Of a DNA stretch of 64,000 nt, positions 38,182 to 55,393 are shown one piece after another. Under the pieces are notes generated by a model that had not been told where the DNA came from, made no database searches, and saw only the letters and a list, made by a program, of their open reading frames with translations. Every line of letters starts with the position of its first letter. Position 1 is the first letter of the stretch. The stretch covers positions 74,224-138,223 of the forward strand of contig CAZNDZ010000003.1 of NCBI GenBank assembly GCA_964572155.1, written 5' to 3'. The position numbers and the translations under genes were made by a program. This stretch comes from an uncultured Planctomycetales bacterium. GTDB taxonomy: Bacteria > Omnitrophota > Gorgyraeia > Zapsychrales > Fredricksoniimonadaceae.

Positions 38182-39737
38182 ATTAGCTTCTCTTTACTTT
38201 TATTTGCATAGGCCATAATAAAACCGAACACACACCAATAAAAAACAGCATTATAAGGCAACTCAAGGGTTACTGAAAACATGGTTACCATAGACCAATA
38301 AACTAAAACACTTAAAAGGATTATGCCACAAAAATCTCTGGCTTTGATGAATTTTCCAACCAGGCGTATCATCAACATAAAATTCACAATAACAATCAAT
38401 AGGCCCAATATTCCTGCACGATAAATCATGTGAAAGAAAGAATTGTGTGGAGCAACCCAACCATCCCTCAACCACTCAATATCACCCCATTCTAAAATCT
38501 CGAGTGATTTCGAACGTTGTGGCTGTCCAAATCCTATCCCAAAGATAAAATTCTTCTTTGTTAATTCTACCCACATGTCTCGCCAGATAAATATTCGAAA
38601 GAGGATATTATTCGTTGCTACATCCAAATTTCTTTCTTCTACCTGGGGTGGCTTTTCCACCTGTATGACCATTGACTCTGTTGTCTTAATCAATGTGTTT
38701 TGAAGCACATCATCTTTTTCATTTCTTTTCTTTTTTACTTCTTTGGATATCTGATTACTTTTGACATTAGAAGATGTTGAATATGTTTGATTCTTTTGAT
38801 CAACAGCTTGCTCTATCATCTCAGGCTGCACAACAGAACCTGCAGGCACAAAAACTTCATTTGGCTTCAACGATGGCTTAGAATTTTCATGGTACAACTT
38901 GTATGGAACAACACCATCATAATACTTGCTTTGATTTTGCTCAACATAGGCATCGTACTTCTGAAATGATTTTAAGAGCCTGTCATAGCGGGTCATGGAC
39001 TTGACGGCATTTTGATCACTAAAAATAAAGCCGCTGATCGTCAATAAAATAACCAATCCAGATATTAAACCTAGCCGCTGCGCAAATGAACCTTTAATAA
39101 AAAAACTAATTCCTGTAAATAATAGAAAACAAACCGCTGAAAAGATTGCAACCATGTGGGCGCGGATTGAGACAAACATCACATCCAAGTGGGAAAAGAT
39201 GACAACAGGAATAACCAACCACCATTGCCTTGGAAAAGCTTTTAAGATAATAACAACCGTAAGCATCAATACTGAAAACCAAAAGAAACTACCAATGAAC
39301 CTAAAAAATAACATAACAATAAACAGTGCAAGTGCCCCAACAACAACCGCACGATGCGTCAAATAGCGTCGATGATAGAACTCATAAGCGAATAAAGCAA
39401 ACGCCGCGTAGTAAAATAATGCGGCATTGCGCAATGCCAACGCGCCCCATTGTTTATAGCCAACGAAAGCATAAATTAGAATAAAAACTAAGTATCCTGC
39501 CCAATAGTAATGATGTTTCTTAAGCCCTCCTGTTAGGAAAATTTTAGTAACGCACAATAAGAATAAAATAAACGCAACAATCTCTCCTAAGAAGATTGGG
39601 AAATCCAGACATGATGGTTGAATATGAATCTCTGCAAAATCTGAGGAAAATAAAGCAGAACCAAGGCAATAAAATGCAATGCCAAGTAATCCCGCCACAT
39701 CCACCAATGTTATGAGTTGTTGTTTAGCACGAACCAC
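38178..39737 (-). CDS. second Wzy_C-domain (O-antigen ligase/polymerase family) membrane protein with a ~130-aa low-complexity Q/E/K-rich insert
   Basis: APHNSFFHMIYRAGILGL matches the Wzy_C loop motif. At least 9 TM helices. Confidence 0.65.
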   Translation of the reverse strand: MVRAKQQLITLVDVAGLLGIAFYCLGSALFSSDFAEIHIQPSCLDFPIFLGEIVAFILFLLCVTKIFLTGGLKKHHYYWAGYLVFILIYAFVGYKQWGALALRNAALFYYAAFALFAYEFYHRRYLTHRAVVVGALALFIVMLFFRFIGSFFWFSVLMLTVVIILKAFPRQWWLVIPVVIFSHLDVMFVSIRAHMVAIFSAVCFLLFTGISFFIKGSFAQRLGLISGLVILLTISGFIFSDQNAVKSMTRYDRLLKSFQKYDAYVEQNQSKYYDGVVPYKLYHENSKPSLKPNEVFVPAGSVVQPEMIEQAVDQKNQTYSTSSNVKSNQISKEVKKKRNEKDDVLQNTLIKTTESMVIQVEKPPQVEERNLDVATNNILFRIFIWRDMWVELTKKNFIFGIGFGQPQRSKSLEILEWGDIEWLRDGWVAPHNSFFHMIYRAGILGLLIVIVNFMLMIRLVGKFIKARDFCGIILLSVLVYWSMVTMFSVTLELPYNAVFYWCVFGFIMAYANKSKEKLI

Positions 39738-39738
39738 C

Positions 39739-40815
39739 CTAAGCTGCCTTTCGATGTGCTAATAACCCTAAGCAATACCTATACCACGTCAATAACAACG
39801 ATAATGCTGCCCCACAAAATGACAAAGCCCAAATGAGCACAAAGACATTGCTGATTCCACGCACTTGCATATAGCTATTGGCCGTTGCCCGCACATTCTC
39901 AAAATCTTGTTTAAGAATAAAATTCCAAATACGTTTTAGAAAAATGGTCTCTTCTTGTTTTAGGTAATATGGGACGCACGGCAAATCAAGCGCTACAAAC
40001 ATGCTTCTAAAAAGCTTCATCGCCTCTTGAAAGTCATACAAAGGCAAAACATCTGGTGTATAAACTAGTCGCCATATCGCCATTAATTGAACAGGATCCC
40101 ATGCGCGTTTTGTCCAAAAAGCAATATTACTCTGATAAACTTCCACCATTTCTTTCATGACACGATTATCGGCTTCCATCACCGAAATCGAATTGGCATG
40201 CGTACGTACAGCTACAAGGATTTGCTTATGGTTGACAATGCGTATCCCCTCTGCCAACAACTTACACCATAACGCATAATCCGCGACGATCTTATAACGC
40301 TCGTCATACCCACCTGCATCGATGATAATCTCTTTCTTCATCAAAGAGCCAACGTGATTGATGGGCGAAGCAAACAAAGATTTGAGCATGATATCTTGCT
40401 CTTTAAGTGGTGTATTGAGTGTCTTGTGAACTTTGTCGTGAACATCGATTAAGGCTGCGCGCGGGCTTAACACAGCACAGGTGGGATATTGCATCATCAC
40501 GCGCATTTGCACCATTAACCAATCCGGATATGCCATGTCATCGGCATCCATACGGGCAATGTATTTGCCCCTTGCTTGATGCAACCCAACATTTAACGAA
40601 CATGTTTGACCAATATTCGCAGGGTTAGCAATGATCCGAACGCGTGGGTCGGTGTATGAACGTAGGATCTCTAAAGAATTATCTGTGCTCTTGTCATCGA
40701 CAATCAAAAATTCAAAATCCGCATGCGTTTGGGCTAACACAGAATCAATGGCTTTATGGAGGAACTTTGCGCCATTATAAACGGTCATTAATACCGTGAT
40801 AGGAACACTGCTCAT
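39739..40815 (-). CDS. glycosyltransferase family 2
   Basis: ITVLMTVYNGAKFL...DFEFLIVDDKSTDNS, a DAD motif and a C-terminal TM anchor. Confidence 0.8.
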   Translation of the reverse strand: MSSVPITVLMTVYNGAKFLHKAIDSVLAQTHADFEFLIVDDKSTDNSLEILRSYTDPRVRIIANPANIGQTCSLNVGLHQARGKYIARMDADDMAYPDWLMVQMRVMMQYPTCAVLSPRAALIDVHDKVHKTLNTPLKEQDIMLKSLFASPINHVGSLMKKEIIIDAGGYDERYKIVADYALWCKLLAEGIRIVNHKQILVAVRTHANSISVMEADNRVMKEMVEVYQSNIAFWTKRAWDPVQLMAIWRLVYTPDVLPLYDFQEAMKLFRSMFVALDLPCVPYYLKQEETIFLKRIWNFILKQDFENVRATANSYMQVRGISNVFVLIWALSFCGAALSLLLTWYRYCLGLLAHRKAA

Positions 40816-41579
40816 GAACTGGCTTTCATTAGATGTTGATTCGTCGCTGTGACATTAAAACTAAATGGTTTATTACAGCTTTCTGTTGCATATGCCCCAC
40901 CCGCACCTTTTAGGATGGCCAAACCACCGGCGATGTCCCACAACATGATATTGCGTTCGATGTAGGCATCACCTCGTCCGCATGCCACATAGGCCAAAGA
41001 TAATGCAGCAGAACCAATCAATCGCGCTTTACGATATGACTGCACCGACGTGACAAAAGCATTAAGATTAAGAGTGGTCATCTCCATGCCTGCAGGGAAT
41101 CCCGTATATAAAACACCTTTAGCTGTTGAGGCAACTTGGCTGACAGCGATGGGCTTATCATTGCACCACGCCCCTCCTTGCGCTAACCCACTAAACATTT
41201 CATCGCGATTAAAATCATAGATCACACCGAGGACGGGTTGATCATGTTGCCATAAGCCAATGGACACACAACACATCGGCATGCCGCGTTCGAAATTAAA
41301 TGTACCGTCAATGGGATCAACAACCCAGAAGGGCTGGTCGCTGGTCTCACCTTTTAATCCCGCTTCTTCAGATAAAATGGCAAGCGGGCTTGCCTTAGAT
41401 AAAATATCTAAGATGATCTTTTCAGATTGTTTATCCGCATGGATTTTAATGTCGTGGTCAAACTCATGCTCAATCCTGCGGTCCACCTGCGTGCTCGTTG
41501 ACAAAAAAACGCCTGCGGCTTTTGCTGCTTGTTTGGCAAGCGCTAATAATGAGAGGTCATTTTTTTCCATATGCACCAA
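40812..41579 (-). CDS. inositol monophosphatase family phosphatase (sugar-phosphate phosphatase candidate)
   Basis: The metal-binding motif WVVDPIDGTFNF and a downstream WD...G motif. Confidence 0.75.
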   Translation of the reverse strand: MVHMEKNDLSLLALAKQAAKAAGVFLSTSTQVDRRIEHEFDHDIKIHADKQSEKIILDILSKASPLAILSEEAGLKGETSDQPFWVVDPIDGTFNFERGMPMCCVSIGLWQHDQPVLGVIYDFNRDEMFSGLAQGGAWCNDKPIAVSQVASTAKGVLYTGFPAGMEMTTLNLNAFVTSVQSYRKARLIGSAALSLAYVACGRGDAYIERNIMLWDIAGGLAILKGAGGAYATESCNKPFSFNVTATNQHLMKASS

Positions 41580-42447
41580 ATGCCGCTATTAAATTTGTTG
41601 CAGCTTGCATTTCCATCAGGCGTCGACATTCTTCTGTATTAGACGCGATATGCGGCGTTAAGATAACTTGCGAAAACTTCAAAAGCGGTCCTTGATATGG
41701 TTCTTGATGAAACACATCACACCATGCCCCTGCAACTTTTCCAGATTCAAGGGCGGCAATAAACGCTGCTTCATTGATCACTTCCCCTCGAGCAGGATTT
41801 AAGATGAGCACGCCTTGCTTCATCAATGCAAATTCTTGAGTACCCAATAATTCTTCTTCACCATTTACATGAATTGTTACAATATCCGCCTTAGGCAAAG
41901 CCTCACTTAAGCGGTCATTGACATCGACGGGGATGATTTTAACTGAAAATGGTTCTAGCATCTTTGCAACCTTGCGGCCAATGCGACCAAACCCGACGAT
42001 CACAACTGTTTTACCCTCAAGTTGAAACCCTAATTTTTTTTGCCATTGCCCTGCATGCAAATCCTGATTCATGACCACCACCGAACGCAACAACATCAAC
42101 ATCGCCATGACCGTTAGTTCCGCCACAGCCACTGTTGGCGCGTTTGGCGTTGAACACACGGCAATATTTAATTTCTTAGCTGCATTAAAATCAACATTCG
42201 ATACCCCTGCGCCACAACGAGAAATGACTTTAAGCGTTGAGGCCATCAAGACTTCCTCATCCAATGTTTCCAAACCTGCAATCACACCGTCGTATTGAGG
42301 GTACAATTGCAAGGCTTCACTTTTGGTTAATTTTCGTTTGTAGGGATTAAGCGTGACATCAAAGCCTGCATCGGCCAATGCTTTTAGAGGAGCAGGGTCA
42401 TTTTGTGCAAAATTCGACGTGGAGATGAAAACTTTTAATTTGGCCAT
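41557..42447 (-). CDS. D-isomer-specific 2-hydroxyacid dehydrogenase family, NAD-binding
   Basis: GFGRIGRKVAKM (G-x-G-x2-G), a catalytic Arg/Glu/His triad region and HIASNT. Confidence 0.8.
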   Translation of the reverse strand: MAKLKVFISTSNFAQNDPAPLKALADAGFDVTLNPYKRKLTKSEALQLYPQYDGVIAGLETLDEEVLMASTLKVISRCGAGVSNVDFNAAKKLNIAVCSTPNAPTVAVAELTVMAMLMLLRSVVVMNQDLHAGQWQKKLGFQLEGKTVVIVGFGRIGRKVAKMLEPFSVKIIPVDVNDRLSEALPKADIVTIHVNGEEELLGTQEFALMKQGVLILNPARGEVINEAAFIAALESGKVAGAWCDVFHQEPYQGPLLKFSQVILTPHIASNTEECRRLMEMQAATNLIAAFGAYGKK

Positions 42448-42452
42448 GGGCC

Positions 42453-43070
42453 TTATGATGCGTTGCGGCGTTTAAGAGATATATACATCGTGATCATATG
42501 ATCTAAGACCATATGCACGTCTTCGACAGGACCATATTGGCCCTTTTCAGATTTAACCATCACAACAATATCACTGATCTTGGCTAGTTGGCCGCCATCA
42601 AAACCAACCAAGGCAACCGTCGTGGCTTCATGTTGTTTGGCCATTTCAACGGCTTTGACCACATTAGGGCTATTGCCGCTGGCCGAGATCACCACCAACA
42701 CATCACCTTTATTAATATGATTGGCCATTTGCAAGGTAAAGACTTGGCTGTAGTCATAATCATTGCTGATCGCCGTTAATGCCGCGGCGTGATCGTTTAA
42801 ACTAAATGTGCGAAAAGGTTTACCACCAACTTTACGGACTATCTCGCCGATATCTTGAGCGAAATGCGAAGCGGTTGCGGCACTGCCGCCATTGCCTGCA
42901 AAGAAAATGGTGCGGCCTTCTTGACTTGCTTTCTCAAAAACCTCAATGACCTTCATGATCGCTTGAGGATCAAGCCCGTCAATCAATTGACCAAGATACA
43001 CGCCATACTTCTTAAAGTAGTCTGCGTCGCTGGTCTTGGTTTTAAAAATATTTTCAACTGTTTGTGCCAT
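42453..43070 (-). CDS. SIS-domain sugar-phosphate isomerase (GmhA / sedoheptulose-7-phosphate isomerase-like, single SIS)
   Basis: FFAGNGGSAATASHFAQD and VISASGNSPN motifs. 205 aa. Confidence 0.75.
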   Translation of the reverse strand: MAQTVENIFKTKTSDADYFKKYGVYLGQLIDGLDPQAIMKVIEVFEKASQEGRTIFFAGNGGSAATASHFAQDIGEIVRKVGGKPFRTFSLNDHAAALTAISNDYDYSQVFTLQMANHINKGDVLVVISASGNSPNVVKAVEMAKQHEATTVALVGFDGGQLAKISDIVVMVKSEKGQYGPVEDVHMVLDHMITMYISLKRRNAS

Positions 43071-43071
43071 A

Positions 43072-43824
43072 TTATTTAATCGCTAAGAACCCTTCAAAAG
43101 AAACATATTTAAAAATGGACATGGTGTCAACAAAGCCTGCGCGTTTAAGCAAATCCAAATTGCCCTGTGTTGAAAAAGGCTCCAACACCCCTTTAAGGCT
43201 TTTAGCCTTATAGACAATCTCATCGGAAGAATAATTTTGTTCGAGTTTATAATCCACATAAAGTGTCTGCATCATATCTTGAAAACGCGCATCACAGGCA
43301 CGAACTTTTTCAAAAAACACAAAGCCACCGCCCCAATTTAAACTCTTATAAATCTTATTAAATACTTCCTGGCGCACATGTGGCGGAATAAATTGCATGG
43401 TGTAATATGAGACGATGAAATTAGATTTTTTATATGGATAGGTGATGATGTCCCCCACCTCAAGCTTGACGTTCTTAAGCTTACCCACTTCTTTCTTCGC
43501 TTGGGCAATCATGCTCTTTTCACAATCAATCCCAACAAATTGAGTATCCTTGCGATGCGCATGCTGACGCGCCATCTTGCCAATCAACGCTCCCGTCGAT
43601 ACACCCAATTCATAGTTCGTGCTATTATCACGCACAAAAAAATCACTGACTTTACAAATCAAGTCATGACCTGATTCATAATATGGCACAGAGCGCTTCA
43701 CATGGTCGGAAAAAGTCTTTGGCACTTCCCCGCTAAAAGACCATGATGCTTCTTTTGCGACGATATTCTCCCCAACCGAACCTTTTCTCTTGTTATTTGA
43801 CACTCGTATTTCCTTTATAACCAA
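43072..43824 (-). CDS. class I SAM-dependent methyltransferase
   Basis: Motif I-like VGIDCEKSM and post-I acidic residue pattern. 250 aa. Confidence 0.7.
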   Translation of the reverse strand: MVIKEIRVSNNKRKGSVGENIVAKEASWSFSGEVPKTFSDHVKRSVPYYESGHDLICKVSDFFVRDNSTNYELGVSTGALIGKMARQHAHRKDTQFVGIDCEKSMIAQAKKEVGKLKNVKLEVGDIITYPYKKSNFIVSYYTMQFIPPHVRQEVFNKIYKSLNWGGGFVFFEKVRACDARFQDMMQTLYVDYKLEQNYSSDEIVYKAKSLKGVLEPFSTQGNLDLLKRAGFVDTMSIFKYVSFEGFLAIK

Positions 43825-44869
43825 TGAATTGAAAAAACTGAGACGGATAATTAACGCGTTTGTACCAGAAGAACTTATCGGCCACGTAATAATGCTGAAT
43901 GAACGGGCACGTTCTCATAAAAATCTGCTCATACTCTTTGAGCGGGTAATCTAAAACCGTGACATCATTGGCATACGTTGGGTATGCATCATAACGGTTA
44001 ACTGTAAACAAAAATGGTGCACTTTCAAACACCGGCGAATGCACATAGGTCATAAACCAATGCCGACTCATTTCTGATAACGACACAAAATTGGTCACCA
44101 AATCAACCGCTTTAGGTGATAGCTTGCTATAAAGCGATGTTGGAACCAGAACGAAATCATACTGCTCAATCCACGCTTTGTCAATCACCTTAGCGTCTAT
44201 AACCTCTTTAAAGCCAGCGATTTTGGCTTGTGGAAAAAGTTTGGCCAGATAATAATGCGCCAAAATCAACTGACCAGATAAATCAACCAAAACATGATGC
44301 GTTTGCGGGTATTCTTGCTTGATCAAGCTTGAAAAAATCCCATAACTACTGCCAATGTCCATGCAAACGGAAGACTTAGGTACTTTAGATTCTAAGTGAC
44401 GATTAAACATGCCTAACAGGTAAATATGTCGAATATACCGATTAGTGAAATAATAGCCGTCATGCTCAATCTTTAAAGGTGACCCAATATCAGGCGTTGG
44501 GTATTTTTTTAAATAATGCAAAAAATCTTCCGCCACAATCACATCATACGCATCCAAGGCTTCACGAATACCGCCGCGTTGGGTGCCTAAAAAGGCATTA
44601 ACCATGCGCTTAAACTGATAATAAATTGGGCTTGGGTTATAGTAACCTTTAAGGGGCGCGCTGGGTCGATCAGCGACGAAGATTTGACGACCACGAAAAT
44701 GCTTTAGATGATCCGGACGGACATTAAAATCAGGGTCAATCAAACGGTCCATTTCCTTAAGGAAACGGCCTTCCCAATCGCCAAAGTCTTTGCGTTCTTG
44801 GGAACGTTCAAAAGCACATAATGCTTTGATGCTTTGATTGATAGTATTAAAGATCTGTGAATCGTTCAT
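43793..44869 (-). CDS. hypothetical protein, possible sugar O-methyltransferase (degenerate class I MTase-like core)
   Basis: CMDIGSSYGIFSSL...VLVDLSG resembles MTase motifs I and II. This is a weak call. Confidence 0.4.
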   Translation of the reverse strand: MNDSQIFNTINQSIKALCAFERSQERKDFGDWEGRFLKEMDRLIDPDFNVRPDHLKHFRGRQIFVADRPSAPLKGYYNPSPIYYQFKRMVNAFLGTQRGGIREALDAYDVIVAEDFLHYLKKYPTPDIGSPLKIEHDGYYFTNRYIRHIYLLGMFNRHLESKVPKSSVCMDIGSSYGIFSSLIKQEYPQTHHVLVDLSGQLILAHYYLAKLFPQAKIAGFKEVIDAKVIDKAWIEQYDFVLVPTSLYSKLSPKAVDLVTNFVSLSEMSRHWFMTYVHSPVFESAPFLFTVNRYDAYPTYANDVTVLDYPLKEYEQIFMRTCPFIQHYYVADKFFWYKRVNYPSQFFQFIGYKGNTSVK

Positions 44870-45699
44870 TATCTAGCCCAAATTTGATTGCGCGTATCCG
44901 GTCTTGACCATTTTAAAGCAAATCCCGCCGCTTGCAATGTTTGGCTGCAAAACTTGGATTTAGCGTCTTCCATGGGCATTTCCAACGTTAAACTGCGCAA
45001 AGCTTTATTCGCCAAAATCTTGGCAGCCCCACGCAATACCTTATCTTCATTACCATCAGTATCAATCTTTAAAGCATTGGGCATTACACCATAATGCGCC
45101 GCTAATGCATCTAAGGTAAAACAAGCGATACCTTCACGCCACACAACCTGATAACCCTCGTCGGTCATTTTAATGGCTTGTGGATTTTCCGTATGAGCTG
45201 CAGCTCCCGGCATGGTGTCTTGAATATTTAAGAAACTTAAACCCTGCGTATCGCTAACAGCCACGGATGTGATTTGAACTTGTCCCACCAAATTATTGGC
45301 AAGGACATTATCTTTGAGCAAACCTAAATTAGAATGCTCTGGTTCAAAGCTAAATACCTTAGACTGCTGGTAGCGTTTGGCGCAATACAACGTAAAAACA
45401 CCGACGTTGGCACCCACATCAAAGAAAACGTCACCGTCTTTAACATAGTCATTGATATATTGCCTGACCTCTGCTTCTTTGGTGGCATATAAAAACCAGC
45501 GAAAATGGGTGATCGAATTAATACAGCTTAAATTTAAAGTGACACCATCACAAGTGACGCTGCGACGAGGCACAAGCCATGAAGATATCATCCAACCCAA
45601 ACAAATAAATGGATAACGCCAATCGCCATGGGATTCACGCAATGTTTTTCCAAAAGGCGTCTTTAATAACGCTTGTACAATGGGATTCTTCTTTAACAC
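44869..45699 (-). CDS. FkbM-family methyltransferase
   Basis: FFDVGANVGVFTLY is the hallmark FkbM motif. Confidence 0.7.
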   Translation of the reverse strand: MLKKNPIVQALLKTPFGKTLRESHGDWRYPFICLGWMISSWLVPRRSVTCDGVTLNLSCINSITHFRWFLYATKEAEVRQYINDYVKDGDVFFDVGANVGVFTLYCAKRYQQSKVFSFEPEHSNLGLLKDNVLANNLVGQVQITSVAVSDTQGLSFLNIQDTMPGAAAHTENPQAIKMTDEGYQVVWREGIACFTLDALAAHYGVMPNALKIDTDGNEDKVLRGAAKILANKALRSLTLEMPMEDAKSKFCSQTLQAAGFALKWSRPDTRNQIWAR

Positions 45700-47345
45700 G
45701 CAATATCCTTACGTATCATTTCTTTGTTAGTAGGACTAAACACAGTGGCGACAAACTCGTATTCCCTGCGCGCTAACGCTGTTTTCGCCGCGACATCACT
45801 GTCACTAAGGGTTTTAAGCCTTTTTTCCAGTTCTTGCGCAGATGCACAACTTAACACAAAATCTGTCTGATTAAAACAAGGATTTATACGAAAAAGATCA
45901 TCCAAACATACATGAATGGCTAATTTACCTGCGTTGATCGCCATTAATCCAGCGCTTGTCGCATTAAACAAGGCCAAATCACAAGCATTTAAATCTTTTG
46001 TAAAATCCCCCGTGTCTTTAATAACCGCGCTAAATTCTTTGGTGATATCATCAAGCTGTTTTGCAAATAATGCGTCTGGTACACTCTTATATCCACGCAC
46101 CATATAGATTTTTTCTTTTAACAACATAGGTTCTGCCCGAAGCCACGACGAAAAAACGCGTAATTCATCCGGATGACTTAAGAATAACAACATTTTAAGC
46201 GGCGATCCAAAAGCCTTTTGATCTTGTGAATGGTTAGCTGATTTAGGACTGCCCCACACATGAACACTGCCTTGTGGTTTCTTTCCCCAGCTCTCAAAAA
46301 AATCCACGTAACGTCCACCACATACAGCATATTGACTAGGTTTAGGTGCCGCAGGTTTTACGTCATCTTTCATGGACAAGGCCAAATGATGCTGAGGGTG
46401 CGGCGTATACCCAATTGTCTTAACATTGCTTCCCTCACAAGCCATTAATAATGCGCGCTCATAACCTTTTTCTTCGTACGGATAGACAATGGTATCGATT
46501 TCTTGCGATGATAATAATTTCTTAACGGATTGATACACTGCCAACTCTTTAACAATTAAATTCTTTGTGTATTGTGTTAACAAAAACCGCGACCAAAAAG
46601 TCGGCGCATTGATGCCGCCAATGGTGCATGGCCGCTGCTTCCAAGAAGCAAAAAACATCATCATGTCCCATGACAATGATGCGTTGATGATAAAAAATTT
46701 ATCATCAACGGGCAATTGATCCAAAACAACAAAAGCCACCTTCGATGAATCCACATCATCAAACATATGGCCATAAAAATATTTGATCGTGTCTTCATTG
46801 GAATGTTTTGGGTCAAAACGTTCCGCAATGACACATGTTTTTTTGCCTTCAAGTGCTAACGTAAAAGACGAACGCTGACTTAACGCGAGTATCTGCTTTA
46901 GCCATTTGATTTTGAAGATGGTTTTTTCTTTGAGCCAAGAATATAAGACTGCAAAATTTATCGACGATGATCCTTGAAAATCAGCGAGGCAACCGATCAA
47001 ATCTTGCGGTGCATTGATGATATTAAGCTTTTGATTAGGATGCTGACGCTGCCATTCTAAAATAGCCCTCGCAAAAAATAAGGGTTTAAACTTTTCTTGA
47101 GCGCCCCAAGGCCTCACATCAAGGCGAGAAAATGGTGTTAACCACCACCAACGACTTTTAGCGCTTAAATCTTTGCTTAAAAGTGCGTGAGCTTGACTTA
47201 AATCTGAAAGCCATGCGTCGGCATTAGCTTGAACAATGGCGCGTATGTCAATATAACCCGCCTTATGGCCATCATCTTCTTGATAGCCATAATTTGCCCA
47301 CAAGGAACCATCTGTAGGTGCGCTTTTAACAAGATTTATGTTCAT
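45693..47345 (-). CDS. large soluble protein of unknown function; candidate CMP-sugar-dependent transferase (contains TPHPQHH motif)
   Basis: 550 aa with no TM segments. It lies immediately upstream of, and is translationally coupled to, the KdsB-like cytidylyltransferase. Confidence 0.4.
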   Translation of the reverse strand: MNINLVKSAPTDGSLWANYGYQEDDGHKAGYIDIRAIVQANADAWLSDLSQAHALLSKDLSAKSRWWWLTPFSRLDVRPWGAQEKFKPLFFARAILEWQRQHPNQKLNIINAPQDLIGCLADFQGSSSINFAVLYSWLKEKTIFKIKWLKQILALSQRSSFTLALEGKKTCVIAERFDPKHSNEDTIKYFYGHMFDDVDSSKVAFVVLDQLPVDDKFFIINASLSWDMMMFFASWKQRPCTIGGINAPTFWSRFLLTQYTKNLIVKELAVYQSVKKLLSSQEIDTIVYPYEEKGYERALLMACEGSNVKTIGYTPHPQHHLALSMKDDVKPAAPKPSQYAVCGGRYVDFFESWGKKPQGSVHVWGSPKSANHSQDQKAFGSPLKMLLFLSHPDELRVFSSWLRAEPMLLKEKIYMVRGYKSVPDALFAKQLDDITKEFSAVIKDTGDFTKDLNACDLALFNATSAGLMAINAGKLAIHVCLDDLFRINPCFNQTDFVLSCASAQELEKRLKTLSDSDVAAKTALARREYEFVATVFSPTNKEMIRKDIAC

Positions 47346-48103
47346 GAAGGGATTGCGCTTGTAAAAATCTTTTGAAAAAGTTTATCTTGCTTGATGATGC
47401 CTTCGGCAAAAGTCAAATCAGCAGGCGTATCAACGCTAATGCTATCCTTAGACAAGAAACCTTGAATGCTATAGCCATGTTCTAGGATGCGCATCATGTC
47501 CACACCTTCGATTTTCTCAAGCGGTGTCGGGGTCAAGGCAGCAAACTTTAATAAGAAATCTTTCTTAAATAAGTAGATGCCAATTTGTTTATAGGCATAG
47601 GCAAAATTTTCTTTGGATTGAATGGGGATGGGCAAACGAGAAAAATATAACACCCGTTGTTTCATATCCATGACGGTTTTAACCACGTCACGGGAAGCAA
47701 AAATATCCCAGTCTAAGATCGGCGCAACTAAATTAACACATGATAGCGACGGATACTTCTTCATCACCTCAATGGCTTGTTCTAAAGCCACTGGATCAAC
47801 CAACGGCTCATCCCCTTGCACATTGATGATGATATCAGCATCAACATTAGCAGCAGCCTCAGCAACACGATCAGTCCCGCGCACATGGTCAGGTGAGGTC
47901 ATGGCAACCTTTGCACCAAAATCTTGCGCAACCTTTTTAATGGCCTCATCGCAGGTGGCGATGATGACCTGATCAATATAGGTGCTTGTTTTTAATCGAC
48001 GGTAAACATGCTCGATCATGGGGTATCCGGCAATTTTTGCAATTGGCTTTCCTGGATAACGTGAAGACCCCATCCGTGCAGGAACAATACAGGCAACTTT
48101 CAT
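47342..48103 (-). CDS. KdsB-family cytidylyltransferase (CMP-Kdo synthetase-like)
   Basis: MKVACIVPARMGSSRYPGKPI...INVQGDEP. Confidence 0.8.
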   Translation of the reverse strand: MKVACIVPARMGSSRYPGKPIAKIAGYPMIEHVYRRLKTSTYIDQVIIATCDEAIKKVAQDFGAKVAMTSPDHVRGTDRVAEAAANVDADIIINVQGDEPLVDPVALEQAIEVMKKYPSLSCVNLVAPILDWDIFASRDVVKTVMDMKQRVLYFSRLPIPIQSKENFAYAYKQIGIYLFKKDFLLKFAALTPTPLEKIEGVDMMRILEHGYSIQGFLSKDSISVDTPADLTFAEGIIKQDKLFQKIFTSAIPS

Positions 48104-48118
48104 CTCTTTGACTCCTTG

Positions 48119-49060: not shown

Positions 49061-49069
49061 GTTTTATCT

Positions 49070-50149: not shown

Positions 50150-50152
50150 TGT

Positions 50153-51127: not shown

Positions 51128-51148
51128 ATCTATCTCCCTAAAAAACTT

Positions 51149-52144
51149 TTATTTTTTACGCGCCACCACCCGCACATGCGAGCTTAAACGACTTTCTTGC
51201 AAAAACTGCTGCAAGGCATTGGATGTCCTGCCATGACGATGAAAGAACACGTACTTCCAAAATGGATCAACATTTGGCATGTCCTTCTTGGCCATAGCCC
51301 CTTTGACAATATCAACGTCCAAACGCCCTGGGGTACTTAATTCTAAAACTTCAAAACCAGCATTCTCTAATAAAGCCACAATAGCTTCCAATGATAGCAG
51401 ATTCATCCGATTTATGGGATTTAAATTTGGTGCATGTTCTTTTAAAACCTGATATTCAAAACCAGAACAAGACGCTGTTGTTAAGAAAAATAGTCCACCC
51501 TCTCTTAACTGATCATTTGCAACATGAACCAAAGCTTTTGGATCTGCGACGCGTTCTAAACCTTCAAAACACGTCACCATGTCAACTTGTGTTGATATGT
51601 TAGCACTTATAATCGCTATATTATCAGGTAATGCTTTGCTATTTTCATATAATTGCGGTTCTAACATGGCAATCTTGCCAAAAACATTCTGGGCCTGCAT
51701 GTGTTTAATCAAAAACGCATATTTGGTATGAACATCGACCCATAAAGGATTATTCGGTAAATATTCATCCGCCCATTCAATCATCCACGCAACCCGTGGG
51801 CCATAAATATAATATAAACGCTCGTCGGGTAAACTGGCCATTTCATGACGCCAGAATTGACACGCTTTAGATGCCTTATAAAAATGATCTAATGCATCTT
51901 GCGTTGGTCGAAAGGCCACGTACCATGATTCACAATCGCTACATTGATGATAAGCCATGCCTAAGCAATCTGTAAAGGCGCGGTTTTCTTTCTTTCCACA
52001 GCCTGTGCAAGGCACATTGACCAAAGGGGCTTTTAATAACATCTGTGTAATATCGACAGACAATAAGCGCACATATTGTTCGTACAAGGCATCATTGACA
52101 TTGCCTGGGACCACACCATCATTTGGGATAACAACTGTTTTCAT
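51149..52144 (-). CDS. class I SAM-dependent methyltransferase with N-terminal 4-Cys zinc-ribbon (architecture like TylCIII-type NDP-sugar C-methyltransferases)
   Basis: N-terminal CTGC...CSDC. MTase motifs FEGLERVADPKALV and LREGGLFFL are present, but motif I is degenerate. Confidence 0.5.
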   Translation of the reverse strand: MKTVVIPNDGVVPGNVNDALYEQYVRLLSVDITQMLLKAPLVNVPCTGCGKKENRAFTDCLGMAYHQCSDCESWYVAFRPTQDALDHFYKASKACQFWRHEMASLPDERLYYIYGPRVAWMIEWADEYLPNNPLWVDVHTKYAFLIKHMQAQNVFGKIAMLEPQLYENSKALPDNIAIISANISTQVDMVTCFEGLERVADPKALVHVANDQLREGGLFFLTTASCSGFEYQVLKEHAPNLNPINRMNLLSLEAIVALLENAGFEVLELSTPGRLDVDIVKGAMAKKDMPNVDPFWKYVFFHRHGRTSNALQQFLQESRLSSHVRVVARKK

Positions 52145-53175
52145 TACGCGTTCTTAGCCTCCGCCTTGCTTGTGTCTGCTGCGTAAATTTTCTCAATCAA
52201 CAGCATGGTCTGATAGGCATCTTCACTGGAGCCCACTTTGATCGGCGTATCATGCACGATGGCATCAATGAATTCTTTAAGCTCCATATCCCATGAATGA
52301 TCTTCATCGTAATAGTTGATGCTTTCTTCAGGATTAGGCAATGGATACCCTGCGGCATCATACAGGCAGCGTGCAATCTTTAAGGTCTCAACACCATAAT
52401 TTCTCGTCGATGACAATATACCTGAAATCGTGATATAACCTTTTTGCAAATACACTTCTAATGAGAACATGTACTTCCATTGAGTGGCAGATGAATGCAG
52501 CATCCCCACTTGGCCTTTTGAGTTACGCATCATCATAAAGGCATTATCTTCAACACCGGTTGGCCAATACTGCTCTGTGATAAATGATTTTACTTCATCA
52601 AACTCGCCACAAAAATATCGAAACAAATCAACCATGTGTATGCCTTGGTCAATTAAGATCCCGCCGCCGGAAACATCTTTTTGATTGCGCCAATTCTTAT
52701 CGTATTGACTGCCCCCGCCTTTGCCATAAACACCGCGCATCCATAAGACATTTCCTAAACGGCCTTTGGTCACAATAGCCTTGGCATCCAACACAGCTTG
52801 ATGATAGCGATGGTTAAAACCAAATTTTAGTTTTAGCTTGGGGTTTTTCTGCTCTGCAGCAATCATGGCTAGAACTTCTTCTTTGGTACGTCCAGGCGGC
52901 TTCTCTGAAAACACATGCACGCCTTGGTTTAAGAAGAAACACACAACCTCGGCCACAAATTTATTGGGAACACAAACAAAGACAATATCTGGCTTGTAGG
53001 TCATTAAATCTTTATAGTCTGTGACAACAGGCAAACCATCGACGGTATCTTTGTATTGCGGATCGAAGACCGCAACCAAACGCAATGATGGCTCATCCTT
53101 AACGCAAGCCGCTCGGATTTTCCCCATCTTGCCATAACCAACAACCGCTACTTTATAGATTTTGTCTAGGCTCAT
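52144..53175 (-). CDS. Gfo/Idh/MocA family NAD(P)-dependent sugar oxidoreductase
   Basis: N-terminal Rossmann KVAVVGYGKMG with a family-typical central EKP motif and C-terminal domain. Confidence 0.8.
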   Translation of the reverse strand: MSLDKIYKVAVVGYGKMGKIRAACVKDEPSLRLVAVFDPQYKDTVDGLPVVTDYKDLMTYKPDIVFVCVPNKFVAEVVCFFLNQGVHVFSEKPPGRTKEEVLAMIAAEQKNPKLKLKFGFNHRYHQAVLDAKAIVTKGRLGNVLWMRGVYGKGGGSQYDKNWRNQKDVSGGGILIDQGIHMVDLFRYFCGEFDEVKSFITEQYWPTGVEDNAFMMMRNSKGQVGMLHSSATQWKYMFSLEVYLQKGYITISGILSSTRNYGVETLKIARCLYDAAGYPLPNPEESINYYDEDHSWDMELKEFIDAIVHDTPIKVGSSEDAYQTMLLIEKIYAADTSKAEAKNA

Positions 53176-53942
53176 CTTTTCCCACGGGCAAACGCCAAAC
53201 CATTCGACGCGACTTCTTGGATAAATAGAAAATCAACGCCATAAGCAATGAAGGTATAACCTTCTTTGATGCGTTCTTTTAATAATTTCTCATCAGCACT
53301 GACAACATGAATGCCTGGAGGAATCCCTTTGGCAGCGGTTGTCTTTCTAACCTTGGCCATGGCTTCAACAACTTCTTTGTCTTTAAATTGCCCAGGCTTA
53401 TTAAGCGACCCCGATAAATCATAAGGCCCAATAATAATCGCATCAATGCCCTCGACGGCTAATATTTCATCGATATTGCGTACGGCTTCAATGTGTTCGA
53501 TTTGCACGACAATCACAGGGTTATTGGTTGCCCATGCGACATATTCCTTAAAATTTTTCCCATAGCCTTGAGCACGCGCCAAACCAACCCCACGTGTGCC
53601 TTTGGGTGGATAACGCACGGCCGCAACAGCATCACGGGCTTGGTTAGCGGTATTGATCATCGGCACAATCACCCCATGCGCGCCTGAGTCCATCGCGCGC
53701 TTGATGATCAAAGGATCATTAGCCCCCACACGCACCAAAACAGGCACGCCACACAAATCAATGGTTCGAATAAGTTCCCCACATTCGCTGACACTTAACG
53801 GCGAATGCTCCATATCTATAGCAAGCCAATCAAAACCTGACTTGGCCATTAATTCAGCGACGGTTGGGTGGCCTATCGTGATCCATGAACCGATGGCTAA
53901 TTGTTTTTTCTTTAATTTACTTTTAAGTGATGAATTCATTTT
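53172..53942 (-). CDS. HpcH/HpaI family class II (metal-dependent) pyruvate aldolase
   Basis: IDMEHSP...VRVG...D.GA.GV.VPM is the family-typical set of motifs. The start is set at the internal ATG (MNSSLKS), because the longer ORF overlaps the flippase gene. Confidence 0.7.
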   Translation of the reverse strand, partial: KMNSSLKSKLKKKQLAIGSWITIGHPTVAELMAKSGFDWLAIDMEHSPLSVSECGELIRTIDLCGVPVLVRVGANDPLIIKRAMDSGAHGVIVPMINTANQARDAVAAVRYPPKGTRGVGLARAQGYGKNFKEYVAWATNNPVIVVQIEHIEAVRNIDEILAVEGIDAIIIGPYDLSGSLNKPGQFKDKEVVEAMAKVRKTTAAKGIPPGIHVVSADEKLLKERIKEGYTFIAYGVDFLFIQEVASNGLAFARGKR

Positions 53943-55393
53943 TTTCCTCTTTGCAAGAACTCCAGATTTAAGAACGGCGCAATAAGGGATAATTTTAATC
54001 CCATTAGCCCATAAAGACAAATAAGAATTATTTTAATCAGTAAACTTATAAACAATGGAACGTTCATGACCGATACGTTCCACGCCACAATGCTTGCGAT
54101 AATAAATGCCATGAAAATGGCCGCGATCTTCAAATGCGGCCACAAAATACGATAAAAATGTTGGGCTACCAAACATGTTAAAGTGGTCATGATAATCCCT
54201 GTCACAAGTGTTGCGTAGGCCGCACCCAAGGATGCCCAATGCTTGATAAAGAAAATGCTCATGACAATATTAACGCCATACGTTACTAACAATAAACCCG
54301 AGGTGATATATGTTTTTTTCAAATAAATCAACTGCATGCTGCCAATCTTTGAAAAAAACAACACCACATAATAGGCGCTAAAAATCATGACCACATAATT
54401 AACCCCAGCGTAACTCTTTGGTAAAACAATTCCCATGATTTCCTGACAAAACAATACCAAGAGCAATGCCCCGCCGGTGGCTGCGTAAAAAAATGGTGCT
54501 AAGTATTCCCCTATTTCCTTCTGGGCTTTCTTTGGGTCATCAAACATCTGCTGATAGGCATGCGGTTGAAAGACGTTTTCTAGCGCATTCTCAAAGGCAA
54601 AAACCAAATACCCAATCTTTTGCCCGATGCTATAAATCCCTACCCCTCCAAGCGATCCCAAGATATTAATCAAATACCGGTCAATGCGCGTGCTAAATAC
54701 ACCTAAGAAAATGCGCGGGGTTAAGGGCAAGGAGATCGCCCATGCTTCTTTAAGCGCTACCCAACTAAAATGAAAAGGACATTCTCTATGAATTTGAATC
54801 AATAAAACAATGCTTAAAATAAACAGCGATACAAATTTAGACAATAAGATCCCCGTCACGGACCAATGAAATCCCAAAAGAAATAGAAGTGACAAACCTA
54901 AATATAAACCGCAATTCATAAGCGAGAACTTTAAATACACGCTTGGTCTTTTGCTATTACGATAAAATGCTAGGAATAAATCAAACACCGATGCAAAAAA
55001 AGTGCCGCATAAATCAAGGGTTAATACCTTTGTTTGCCCAGGGATTCGAAATAGAAACTGTGCAATGGCCTCTCCCCAGAAAATCGTACACATCAGCAAG
55101 ATGATGAAGTTAAAACACACAAAGGCCAGAATCGAATAAATCAATTGTGATAAACGCACTTGATCTTTGGCGTACGCAAAAAAGTTGCGGTCAAAGGCAA
55201 TGCTGCTGCCTAAGAAAGCTATGCCAGCCACGAAGACCGCATAAATTTCAGACAAAGCCAAGATACCAAAGTCTTCTTTTGTGAGAACCCGAGCGAAAAT
55301 GGGCAATGTCAACACAGGCACTGCCGTTGTAAATACCACGGCTAATGTGTAGGCCGATGAGCTTTTTAATTGCTGTGTAAATAACTTACCCAT
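53936..55393 (-). CDS. Wzx-type polysaccharide flippase (MOP superfamily)
   Basis: 485 aa with about 12-14 TM helices and the typical N-terminus of polysaccharide-biosynthesis exporters. Confidence 0.7.
   Translation of the reverse strand: MGKLFTQQLKSSSAYTLAVVFTTAVPVLTLPIFARVLTKEDFGILALSEIYAVFVAGIAFLGSSIAFDRNFFAYAKDQVRLSQLIYSILAFVCFNFIILLMCTIFWGEAIAQFLFRIPGQTKVLTLDLCGTFFASVFDLFLAFYRNSKRPSVYLKFSLMNCGLYLGLSLLFLLGFHWSVTGILLSKFVSLFILSIVLLIQIHRECPFHFSWVALKEAWAISLPLTPRIFLGVFSTRIDRYLINILGSLGGVGIYSIGQKIGYLVFAFENALENVFQPHAYQQMFDDPKKAQKEIGEYLAPFFYAATGGALLLVLFCQEIMGIVLPKSYAGVNYVVMIFSAYYVVLFFSKIGSMQLIYLKKTYITSGLLLVTYGVNIVMSIFFIKHWASLGAAYATLVTGIIMTTLTCLVAQHFYRILWPHLKIAAIFMAFIIASIVAWNVSVMNVPLFISLLIKIILICLYGLMGLKLSLIAPFLNLEFLQRGKK

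What the first reader, a model, noticed from the sequence alone, without database searches (positions are those of the whole stretch)
40812..45699. SIS isomerase + 2-hydroxyacid dehydrogenase + IMPase-family phosphatase + three or four methyltransferases: a sugar-phosphate tailoring module lacking any kinase or nucleotidyltransferase partner
A single-SIS GmhA-like isomerase normally starts heptose synthesis from sedoheptulose-7-P. Here it is not followed by the HldE/HddA kinase, GmhB HAD phosphatase and nucleotidyltransferase set. Instead there is a phosphoglycerate-dehydrogenase-like 2-hydroxyacid dehydrogenase, an inositol-monophosphatase-fold phosphatase, and a class I, a degenerate and an FkbM methyltransferase. 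This looks like either an alternative phosphatase-first route to a free or O-methylated heptose, or a SerA/SerB-like route to a glyceric-acid-type non-sugar substituent. Neither has been described as such.
Basis: inference. Interest (0 to 1): 0.55.

Follow-up and report, generated by a model that had tools for sequence, protein, structure and literature searches.

The report
Sugar-acid module with overlooked CMP partner
The isomerase, dehydrogenase, phosphatase and methyltransferase genes are real, but they are one half of a widespread, unstudied gene set that most likely makes a CMP-activated, methylated acidic sugar for the cell surface, possibly by oxidising a seven-carbon sugar phosphate instead of using the usual synthase.

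Summary
All six genes at 40812-45699 (minus strand) are real, tightly packed and intact. They encode an IMPase-family phosphatase, a short SerA-like D-2-hydroxyacid dehydrogenase (DH), a GmhA-like SIS isomerase, a CmoA-like class I methyltransferase, a NanM-type sugar O-methyltransferase and an FkbM methyltransferase.

A KdsB-like cytidylyltransferase lies two genes upstream (47342-48103). In about 50 related loci from more than ten phyla, the DH almost always sits beside a CTP_transf_3 gene. It usually also has a GFO/IDH/MocA oxidoreductase, this SIS paralogue, and either a phosphatase or an SDR plus an AroB-related enzyme. An HpcH aldolase is frequent but can be missing.

None of these genes is housekeeping. 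The genome has separate gmhA, hldE, kdsA, kdsB and serA genes, and no heptose kinase lies in the window.

Best model (inferred): sedoheptulose-7-P is isomerised to heptose-7-P, oxidised at C1 to heptonate-7-P, oxidised at C2 to 2-keto-heptonate-7-P, dephosphorylated, CMP-activated, O-methylated and transferred. The main rival is the aldolase-based route.

This scan has already noted the same cassette on other DNA at least six times. I found no published description of it.

The parts
40812..41579 (-). IMPase-family phosphatase (255 aa). Proposed role: dephosphorylation of the sugar-acid omega-phosphate, the same role KdsC plays for Kdo.
   Evidence: PF00459 at 178 bits. The EE, DPIDGT and WD..GG metal motifs are visible in the alignment to 5zhh. 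It is the gene immediately downstream of the DH in 15 of 51 loci. It is replaced by a HAD hydrolase in L039 and by SDR plus an AroB-related enzyme in 8-11 loci.
41557..42447 (-). Short SerA-like D-2-hydroxyacid dehydrogenase (296 aa). Proposed role: aldonate-phosphate 2-dehydrogenase that creates the 2-keto acid.
   Evidence: PF02826 and PF00389. PGDH TIGR01327 scores 194 bits against a cut-off of 454. The catalytic R220, E249 and H266 are invariant. The SerA 'VRS' and 'WER' positions are lost and an NPxKRKLT motif is gained. It has no ACT domain, and no fused forms were found.
42453..43070 (-). GmhA-like single-SIS isomerase paralogue (205 aa). Proposed role: sedoheptulose-7-P to D-glycero-D-manno-heptose-7-P.
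   Evidence: SIS_2 at 74 bits. Its best PDB matches are phosphoheptose isomerases. It belongs to a clade separate from canonical gmhA (SH-aLRT 100), with HldE-linked members nested among cassette members. The canonical H/E/Q/H tetrad is H/D/E/H in this clade.
43072..43824 (-). CmoA-like class I SAM methyltransferase (250 aa); a variable accessory gene.
   Evidence: TIGR00740 at 150 bits, below the 193 cut-off. It aligns end to end with CmoA structure 4gek, but CmoA Arg199 aligns to Ala207. It is present in L004 and absent in the near relative L115.
43793..44869 (-). NanM-type sugar O-methyltransferase (358 aa).
   Evidence: TIGR04371 at 102 bits against a cut-off of 44. The nearest Atlas clusters are named 'sugar O-methyltransferase', scores 0.97-0.98. 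Homologues are present in L004, L013, L093 and L115.
44869..45699 (-). FkbM-family methyltransferase (276 aa).
   Evidence: TIGR01444 at 90 bits against a cut-off of 38. It has a DVGANVG motif. Homologues lie in the cassettes of L004, L013, L014, L038, L093, L094 and L115.
45693..47345 (-). 550-aa GT-B-fold protein; candidate transferase for the activated sugar acid.
   Evidence: AlphaFold model with pLDDT 94.5. Residues 166-550 match GT-B glycosyltransferases at Z 10-14.5. The Atlas lead points to Glyphos_transf, Capsule_synth and LIC12162 families. It follows the KdsB-like gene in L004, L013, L038, L093 and L115.
47342..48103 (-). KdsB/KpsU-like cytidylyltransferase; the overlooked nucleotidyltransferase partner.
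   Evidence: NF009905 at 286 bits (cut-off 255) and TIGR00466 at 171.5 bits (cut-off 155). Its best PDB match is KpsU 1gq9. The housekeeping kdsB is elsewhere, at C1:826983.
52144..53175 (-). GFO/IDH/MocA oxidoreductase. Proposed role: C1 oxidation of the aldose phosphate to the aldonate.
   Evidence: Pfam match. Present in 22 of 30 DH loci with good flanks, typically in the order GFO-SIS-DH. The family includes both aldose 1-dehydrogenases and ring-hydroxyl dehydrogenases.
53172..54020 (-). HpcH/HpaI class II pyruvate aldolase. It is frequent in the cassette but not obligatory, and its role is unresolved.
   Evidence: PF03328 at 143 bits. The HpaI catalytic H, R, E and D positions are conserved in the alignment to 2v5j. 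Present in 11 of 30 loci. Not found anywhere in the genomes that hold L044, L050 and L059.

Best explanation
The six genes are the distal half of one operon-borne cassette that builds and decorates a CMP-activated 2-ulosonic (alpha-keto) sugar acid for a Wzx/Wzy surface polysaccharide of an Omnitrophota bacterium.

Proposed order of steps; all steps are inferred and none is shown:
1. The GmhA-type SIS paralogue converts sedoheptulose-7-P to D-glycero-D-manno-heptose-7-P.
2. The GFO/IDH/MocA enzyme (52144-53175) oxidises C1 to give heptonate-7-P.
3. The SerA-like dehydrogenase oxidises the C2 hydroxyl to give 2-keto-heptonate-7-P. This compound resembles DAHP but carries a 3-hydroxyl.
4. The IMPase-family enzyme removes the 7-phosphate.
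5. The KdsB-like enzyme (47342-48103) makes the CMP-sugar.
6. The three methyltransferases, plus a fourth at 51149-52144, O-methylate the sugar, and the GT-B protein (45693-47345) transfers it.

In this window a HisC-like aminotransferase, a GNAT and a radical SAM enzyme (48119-51127) probably add an N-acyl-amino group as well. The role of the HpcH aldolase is open. It might edit C3/C4 stereochemistry by retro-aldol/aldol, or it might make a 3-deoxy congener.
For: - Cassette membership. L004 repeats the whole gene order from GFO to IMPase, and L115, from the same family, runs from Wzx to IMPase.
- Partners of the DH. In 30 DH loci with good flanks, GFO is present in 22, a KdsB-like gene in 17, SIS in 17, IMPase in 12 and HpcH in 11. 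At least 7 further loci carry a short PseF-like CTP_transf_3 beside the DH.
- Immediate neighbours of the DH in 51 loci: SIS upstream in 18, IMPase downstream in 15, SDR downstream in 11.
- Sets without an aldolase. L044 reads MT-GT4-rSAM-GT4-MT-GFO-CTP3-DH-IMPase-GT2, and neither L044 nor L059 shows an aldolase, NeuB or KdsA among the neighbouring ORFs scanned. No HpcH was found in those whole genomes. Five relatives at least 85% complete carry the DH paralogue but no HpcH. In such loci only GFO plus DH could supply the carboxylate and the 2-keto group that a CTP_transf_3 enzyme needs.
- Seven carbons. HldE-linked SIS genes are nested among cassette SIS genes. The alternative to IMPase passes TIGR04425, 'AroB-related sugar phosphate phospholyase', at 441 bits and also scores 264 bits to aroB, whose substrate is the C7 keto-acid phosphate DAHP.
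- The DH is not a 3-phosphoglycerate dehydrogenase. The two Arg positions that, from my own knowledge of PHGDH, bind phosphate are lost, while the catalytic triad is kept.
- Chemical precedents. KguD interconverts 6-phosphogluconate and 2-keto-6-phosphogluconate (PMC11678583). That KguD belongs to the 2-Hacid_dh family, and that Epd plus PdxB oxidise erythrose-4-P at C1 and then at C2, are from my own knowledge.
- Non-3-deoxy ulosonic acids exist in capsules. E. coli K3 carries a hexulosonic acid side branch (bioRxiv 10.1101/2025.01.29.635457).
Against: - No enzyme of this cassette has been assayed.
- The GFO family holds ring-hydroxyl dehydrogenases as well as C1 dehydrogenases, so C1 oxidation is a guess.
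- The model leaves the intact HpcH aldolase in this window without a job.
- The DH was the anchor of the locus search, so its own frequency cannot be judged.
- The genomes that lack HpcH are metagenome bins of unknown completeness.
- The SIS fails the gmhA cut-off and its catalytic tetrad is altered, so another ketose phosphate cannot be excluded as substrate.
- My searches found no report of a hept-2-ulosonic acid in a bacterial glycan.
Confidence: 0.4

Rival explanations
1. Aldolase-based route, the reading given in earlier notes of this scan. The HpcH aldolase is the synthase: it condenses pyruvate with an aldose or aldose phosphate. The acceptor could be supplied by the SIS, or it could be erythrose-4-P, which would give a DAHP-like acid. 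IMPase then plays the KdsC role and the KdsB-like enzyme activates the 3-deoxy-2-ulosonic acid. GFO and the DH only tailor the product.
For: HpcH is intact. It is adjacent to the KdsB-like gene, or separated from it only by a methyltransferase gene, in many loci. The KdsB-like enzyme passes the kdsB cut-offs. The AroB-related swap fits a DAHP-like product equally well.
Against: HpcH is absent from about 40% of cassettes and from whole genomes that still hold GFO, DH, IMPase and CTP_transf_3. The model gives no role to a 2-hydroxyacid dehydrogenase, which is the most constant partner of the cytidylyltransferase. A heptose plus pyruvate would give a C10 acid, and an AroB-type enzyme could not process that.
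Confidence: 0.25
2. Kdo booster plus tailoring. The SIS and the KdsB-like enzyme act like the capsule-locus duplicates KpsF and KpsU. They raise CMP-Kdo supply from the housekeeping KdsA/KdsC enzymes, and the other enzymes modify Kdo, as in the Kdo8N pathway.
For: The best solved relative of the cytidylyltransferase is KpsU. The genome has kdsA and a second kdsB. A HisC-like aminotransferase is present.
Against: The SIS is GmhA-type, not KpsF-type. The KdsB 'LEQLR' stretch and the His in the 'HVGIY' stretch are changed. The cassette occurs in a Woesearchaeota archaeon (L059), and archaea are not expected to have a Kdo pathway (own knowledge, not checked in that genome). The DH and IMPase are left unexplained.
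Confidence: 0.08
3. The DH, with the HisC-like aminotransferase and the IMPase, runs a SerA/SerC/SerB-like route to a glycerate-, hydroxypyruvate- or serine-type non-sugar substituent, which is then O-methylated, for example to a di-O-methylglyceroyl group on an amino sugar.
For: The DH is closest to SerA, at 35-44% identity. The aminotransferase is HisC-like and the IMPase also matches HisN, the histidinol-phosphatase model. A GNAT and several methyltransferases are present.
Against: The SerA Arg-Ser and Arg135-equivalent positions, taken from my own knowledge as the phosphate binders, are lost. Most cassettes lack the aminotransferase and the GNAT but keep the DH, the phosphatase and a CTP_transf_3 gene. 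The model does not explain the SIS or GFO.
Confidence: 0.08
4. A phosphatase-first route gives a free or O-methylated heptose with no nucleotide activation.
For: A GmhA-like isomerase lies next to a phosphatase, and no heptose kinase is in the window.
Against: A free sugar cannot be used by glycosyltransferases. A cytidylyltransferase and two oxidoreductases are conserved partners.
Confidence: 0.04

Closest known systems
Kdo pathway (KdsD, KdsA, KdsC, KdsB) and the capsule duplicates KpsF/KpsU
   Same: The overall logic is shared: a SIS isomerase acts on a ketose phosphate, a sugar-acid phosphate is formed, a phosphatase removes the phosphate, and a KdsB-type enzyme makes the CMP-sugar. The cytidylyltransferase here passes the kdsB cut-offs.
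   Different: There is no KdsA-type PEP-dependent synthase. The isomerase is GmhA-type, without CBS domains. The phosphatase is IMPase-fold, not HAD. Two extra oxidoreductases (GFO and a 2-hydroxyacid dehydrogenase) are core parts. The true kdsA and kdsB lie elsewhere in the genome.
[quoted passage not shown]
   Same: The proposed chemistry is shared: an aldose phosphate is oxidised at C1, and a 2-Hacid_dh family enzyme then acts at C2 of the aldonate phosphate. The KguD reaction is cited from PMC11678583. The family assignments are from my own knowledge.
   Different: The substrate length differs (C4 and C6 against a proposed C7). Here the direction is biosynthetic, towards a glycan. No orthology holds: PdxB models score only 55-72 bits.
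ADP/GDP-heptose pathway (GmhA, HldE or HddA, GmhB, HddC)
   Same: A GmhA-like isomerase is the first step. Close relatives of this SIS sit beside HldE in other loci.
   Different: No kinase, GmhB or heptose nucleotidyltransferase lies in the window. The canonical gmhA and hldE are on other contigs.
SerA, D-3-phosphoglycerate dehydrogenase
   Same: It is the closest sequence family. The catalytic Arg/Glu/His are kept.
   Different: The DH is short, with no ASB or ACT domains. The 'VRS' and 'WER' positions are deleted or replaced. It scores 194 bits against a cut-off of 454. The true serA is at C1:834383.
Kdo8N pathway of Shewanella (KdnB, KdnA, KdsB)
   Same: An oxidoreductase, an aminotransferase and a KdsB-type enzyme act on an ulosonic acid. 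This fits the aminotransferase/GNAT extension seen in this window.
   Different: Most cassettes lack the aminotransferase.

Membership tests
GmhA (sedoheptulose-7-P isomerase, TIGR00441) | Score over the curated equivalog cut-off | tested here: not met
   110 bits against a cut-off of 209. The genome's other copy, at C2:320748, scores 215 bits.
GmhA (sedoheptulose-7-P isomerase, TIGR00441) | Catalytic/metal tetrad (His, Glu, Gln, His) and the SxSGNS phosphate loop | tested here: inconclusive
   The phosphate loop SASGNS and the ND.Y motif are kept. The tetrad reads His, Asp, Glu, His throughout the paralogue clade.
GmhA (sedoheptulose-7-P isomerase, TIGR00441) | Genomic link to a heptose-7-P kinase | tested here: inconclusive
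   There is no such link in this window. Nested members of the same clade do sit beside HldE in L006, L008 and L111.
Nucleotide-heptose pathway | HldE/HddA kinase, GmhB and HddC or the HldE adenylyltransferase in the locus | tested here: not met
   No kinase was found among the window ORFs scanned. hldE is on contig C1. The RmlA-like gene scores 224 bits to rmlA and 53 bits to HddC. GmhB was not searched for as a family.
SerA / 3-phosphoglycerate dehydrogenase (TIGR01327) | Score over the cut-off and full domain set | tested here: not met
   194 bits against a cut-off of 454. Only positions 25-298 of the 525 in the profile are matched. The true serA scores 643 bits at C1:834383.
SerA / 3-phosphoglycerate dehydrogenase (TIGR01327) | Arg-Ser of the 'VRS' motif and the Arg of 'WER' (that these bind the substrate anion is own knowledge) | tested here: not met
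   'VRS' is replaced by 'AGLE' with a 2-residue deletion, and 'WER.K' by 'W.--K'. Both changes hold in all nine cassette DHs and in none of the three SerAs in the alignment.
D-2-hydroxyacid dehydrogenase superfamily | Rossmann GxGxxG motif and the catalytic Arg/Glu/His | tested here: met
   G152, G154, G157, R220, E249 and H266 are invariant in 58 sequences.
Inositol monophosphatase family (PF00459) | Pfam cut-off and metal-binding motifs | tested here: met
   178 bits against a cut-off of 27. The EE, DPIDGT and WD..GG motifs are visible in the alignment. No equivalog model (SuhB, HisN, CysQ) is passed.
KdsB (CMP-Kdo synthetase) | Curated cut-offs | tested here: met
   NF009905 at 286 bits (cut-off 255) and TIGR00466 at 171.5 bits (cut-off 155). 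It is a second copy beside the housekeeping kdsB, which scores 225 bits. Substrate identity was not tested.
CmoA (carboxy-SAM synthase) | Cut-off, and Arg199, which binds the Cx-SAM carboxylate (own knowledge) | tested here: not met
   150 bits against a cut-off of 193. Arg199 aligns to Ala207.
TIGR04371 sugar O-methyltransferase and TIGR01444 FkbM | Curated cut-offs | tested here: met
   102 bits against a cut-off of 44, and 90 bits against a cut-off of 38.

The most novel reading that the evidence does not exclude
Bacteria and some archaea have a third way of making activated alpha-keto sugar acids, besides the PEP-dependent synthases (KdsA, NeuB) and pyruvate aldolases. In this route a ketose phosphate is isomerised and then oxidised at C1 and at C2, by a GFO enzyme and a SerA-derived dehydrogenase. 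The product is a non-3-deoxy hept-2-ulosonic acid that is dephosphorylated, CMP-activated, O-methylated and built into surface glycans. In a sister variant of the cassette, an AroB-like enzyme instead turns the same intermediate into a carbocyclic acid.
Probability: 0.3. Interest if true: 0.75.

Novelty: new variant of a known kind. Interest (0 to 1): 0.6.

Why it matters
CMP-activated keto sugar acids such as Kdo, sialic, legionaminic and pseudaminic acids shape how microbes are recognised by hosts and phages. Every known route starts from a PEP-dependent synthase.

This cassette is found in Omnitrophota, Planctomycetota, Thermodesulfobacteriota, Acidobacteriota, Chloroflexota, Verrucomicrobiota, candidate-phyla-radiation bacteria and a Woesearchaeota archaeon. 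It has no such synthase, and in a good share of loci it has no aldolase either.

If the oxidative route is right, three things would follow:
- a new class of surface sugar;
- a new function for a SerA paralogue that annotation pipelines currently name 'phosphoglycerate dehydrogenase';
- a set of enzymes useful for making rare ulosonic acids.

It also shows that the 'orphan' isomerase, dehydrogenase and phosphatase genes often seen in glycan loci should be read together with the nearby cytidylyltransferase.

Tried and rejected
- Literature. Four full-text searches found no paper describing this gene set. They covered HpcH with cytidylyltransferase, ulosonic acid with aldolase and 2-hydroxyacid dehydrogenase, hept-/hex-2-ulosonic acids, and PGDH with IMPase and cytidylyltransferase.
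- Fusion proteins that might tie the DH to a partner. Only full-length SerA turned up.
- Hydroxypyruvate-donor idea (the DH and IMPase make hydroxypyruvate for the aldolase). Set aside because the DH often occurs without HpcH.
- C10 acid from heptose plus pyruvate. Set aside for the same reason, and because an AroB-type enzyme replaces the phosphatase.
- Carboxy-SAM idea for the CmoA-like gene. Set aside because Arg199 is not conserved.
- HddC idea for the RmlA-like gene. Rejected.
- NanM-type methyltransferase against PDB sequences: no match.
- The 550-aa protein. A first model from 6 sequences was poor, with pLDDT 61. The good model matched only generic GT-B enzymes in Foldseek and VIA-align, so the fold does not tell a CMP-sugar donor from a CDP-linked one.
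- My greedy ORF maps sometimes dropped real genes, for example GFO in L115, which I recovered by tblastn. The tallies are therefore lower bounds.

Full report
**Observation**

The window carries one long minus-strand array of polysaccharide genes running from about 24.8 kb to its end. At 40812-45699 there are six abutting or overlapping ORFs:
- an IMPase-family protein (PF00459, 178 bits);
- a D-2-hydroxyacid dehydrogenase, here called the DH (PF02826 147 bits, PF00389 80 bits);
- a single-SIS protein (SIS_2, 74 bits);
- a class I methyltransferase;
- a 358-aa protein with only weak Pfam methyltransferase hits;
- an FkbM methyltransferase.

NCBIfam sharpens three of these. The SIS is gmhA-like but below the cut-off (110 against 209 bits). 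The DH is PGDH-like but far below the cut-off (194 against 454 bits). Its sequence shows a normal DIGSSYG motif.

**The missed partner**

Two genes upstream, at 47342-48103, lies a cytidylyltransferase that passes both a KdsB subfamily model and the kdsB equivalog model. Its best solved relative is the capsule enzyme KpsU. Further upstream lie a GNAT, a HisC-like aminotransferase, a radical SAM/SPASM enzyme, a fourth methyltransferase, a GFO/IDH/MocA oxidoreductase, an HpcH/HpaI aldolase and Wzx. The statement 'lacking any nucleotidyltransferase partner' does not hold.

**Not housekeeping, and not a nucleotide-heptose pathway**

The 2.19-Mb genome has all of these elsewhere:
- a canonical gmhA (215 bits);
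- an hldE-type kinase, kdsB and kdsA side by side on contig C1;
- a full-length serA (643 bits);
- a second IMPase.

No PfkB or GHMP kinase was found among the window ORFs scanned. The RmlA-like gene at 36449-37192 is rmlA-type, not HddC.

**Comparative genomics**

Homologues of the SIS and the DH are abundant in metagenomes at 55-73% identity. One contig, L004, repeats the window's order from GFO to IMPase, including all three methyltransferases.

I scanned one genome per species using a DH alignment. This gave about 48 loci with a DH at 44% identity or more, from Omnitrophota, Planctomycetota, Nitrospirales, Acidobacteriota, Thermodesulfobacteriota, Chloroflexota, Verrucomicrobiota, Parcubacteria, Actinomycetota and a Woesearchaeota archaeon.

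Among the 30 loci with good flanks, the counts are:

| Gene | Loci (of 30) |
|---|---|
| GFO | 22 |
| KdsB-like | 17 |
| SIS | 17 |
| IMPase | 12 |
| HpcH | 11 |
| SDR plus dehydroquinate-synthase-like pair | 8-10 |

In at least seven loci scored as lacking a KdsB-like gene, the ORF beside the DH is a short PseF-like CTP_transf_3. The DH is therefore almost always paired with a CMP-forming enzyme.

The immediate neighbours of the DH in 51 loci are SIS upstream in 18, IMPase downstream in 15 and SDR downstream in 11. In L039 a HAD hydrolase takes the place of IMPase. The dehydroquinate-synthase-like alternative passes TIGR04425, 'AroB-related putative sugar phosphate phospholyase (cyclizing)', at 441 bits and scores 264 bits to aroB itself.

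**Is the aldolase the synthase?**

Earlier notes of this scan read the cassette as aldolase-based. The aldolase in this window is intact. However, several results show it is not always present:
- L044 and L059 were mapped by Pfam across the neighbouring ORFs I scanned. They hold GFO, a CTP_transf_3 gene, the DH and IMPase, but no aldolase, NeuB or KdsA.
- No HpcH was found anywhere in the genomes that hold L044, L050 and L059.
- In L037 the HpcH gene is split into two frames.
- Among 40 relatives of the window's genome, about 19 carry a short DH paralogue and 12 carry an HpcH homologue. Five genomes at least 85% complete have the DH but no HpcH.

In such loci, the only enzymes that could give a sugar both the carboxylate and the 2-keto group needed by a KdsB/NeuA-type enzyme are GFO and the DH.

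**The three core proteins**

SIS. In a tree, the glycan-locus SIS genes form a clade well separated from canonical gmhA (SH-aLRT 100). SIS genes that sit beside HldE and two SDR epimerase/dehydratase-family genes (L006, L008/L110, L111) are nested among the cassette SIS genes. This argues that both groups make heptose-7-P. Across the clade the phosphate loop is kept. The canonical His/Glu/Gln/His tetrad reads His/Asp/Glu/His. The sub-clade linked to the AroB-related variant has even lost the first His.

DH. The catalytic Arg/Glu/His and the Rossmann motif are invariant. Compared with three bona fide SerA proteins, all nine cassette DHs replace 'VRS' by 'AGLE', delete the Arg of 'WER', and gain an NPxKRKLT motif (human PHGDH alignment). 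It is therefore a SerA-derived enzyme whose active site has been remodelled for a different substrate.

IMPase. It keeps its metal-binding motifs.

**Model**

The most economical reading assigns five of the six core enzymes: ketose phosphate, to aldose phosphate (SIS), to aldonate phosphate (GFO), to 2-keto-aldonate phosphate (DH), to free ulosonic acid (IMPase), to the CMP-sugar.

There are chemical precedents. KguD interconverts 6-phosphogluconate and 2-keto-6-phosphogluconate (PMC11678583). From my own knowledge, Epd and PdxB oxidise erythrose-4-P at C1 and then at C2.

If the substrate is sedoheptulose-7-P, the intermediate resembles DAHP with an added 3-hydroxyl. That would explain why an AroB-like enzyme can take the phosphatase's place. 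Non-3-deoxy ulosonic acids do occur in capsules: E. coli K3 carries a hexulosonic acid.

The model leaves the aldolase without a role. It also rests on an unproven C1 specificity for GFO.

**Tailoring and transfer**

The FkbM and NanM-type methyltransferases recur in the more elaborate cassettes (L004, L013, L014, L038, L093, L094, L115). The CmoA-like gene is a rare accessory. It lacks CmoA's Arg199, so it is probably an ordinary methyltransferase.

The 550-aa protein between FkbM and the cytidylyltransferase folds with high confidence (pLDDT 94.5). It has a helical N-terminal part followed by a GT-B domain, so it is a plausible transferase. The fold does not reveal its donor substrate.

**Locus dynamics**

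A same-family relative, G012 (L115), has the same gene order at 54-88% identity, but without the CmoA-like and GT2 genes. A same-genus relative, G002 (L116), has a rearranged cassette at only 33-45% identity between flanks that are 76-83% identical. This pattern is expected for a serotype-like variable locus.

The SIS of G011, a genome of the same family as the window's, is identical to that of an Omnitrophota bin. This places the window's organism in Omnitrophota.

**Verdict**

The module belongs to a widespread, uncharacterised CMP-sugar-acid cassette that this scan has already met on other DNA at least six times.

This follow-up adds four points:
- the aldolase is dispensable;
- the SerA-like dehydrogenase is the constant partner of the cytidylyltransferase;
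- the dehydrogenase's active site is no longer that of a phosphoglycerate dehydrogenase;
- an oxidative route from a seven-carbon sugar phosphate fits the comparative data best.

All enzymatic steps remain inferred.

Noticed in passing
L092:10905-12720 (also L022, L030, L032-L036, L042): In a sister variant of the cassette, the IMPase is replaced by an SDR plus an enzyme that passes TIGR04425 (AroB-related cyclizing phospholyase; 441 bits). The SIS genes of that sub-clade have lost the first catalytic His. This hints at a carbocyclic acid product.
   Followed up: partly
L006:10001-20388 and L008:10001-20550: Close relatives of the window's SIS head a different conserved block: SIS, an SDR epimerase/dehydratase-family gene (annotated only at Pfam level), HldE, a second such SDR-family gene, two DegT aminotransferases, a 207-aa unknown, an APH-like kinase, a split transketolase and a methyltransferase. 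This may be an undescribed ADP-heptose-derived amino sugar pathway.
   Followed up: no
window 43072-43824: A full-length CmoA look-alike sits in a glycan operon but has Ala where CmoA has Arg199. It shows a tRNA-modification fold recruited to sugar tailoring.
   Followed up: partly
L116 (G002:C3:147000-166999) against window 34561-54020: A same-genus genome carries a rearranged cassette at only 33-45% identity between flanks that are 76-83% identical (RmlB-like, GT4, u525). The cassette appears to be swapped as a unit, like O-antigen genes.
   Followed up: partly
L037 about 5116-6300 (CP064976.1: 796467-797131): The HpcH aldolase of this complete deltaproteobacterial genome is split into two frames, while the rest of the cassette is intact.
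   Followed up: no
window 35670-38181: The RmlB-like and RmlA-like genes are much better conserved across loci (61-77% identity in L014, L021, L022) than the neighbouring cassette genes (45-58%). The RmlB-like gene passes the dTDP-glucose 4,6-dehydratase equivalog. The short 260-aa epimerase/reductase next to them is 34-37% identical across those loci and matches no curated model.
   Followed up: partly
G000:C1:825976-835960: The housekeeping hldE kinase, kdsB, kdsA, a KpsF-like SIS gene and serA lie within 10 kb of each other on another contig.
   Followed up: no
L046:10881-11639 and L050:5582-6463: MptE-like (DUF115) proteins, a domain known from Maf-type nonulosonic-acid transferases (own knowledge), sit in cassettes that have the short PseF-like cytidylyltransferase.
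   Followed up: no
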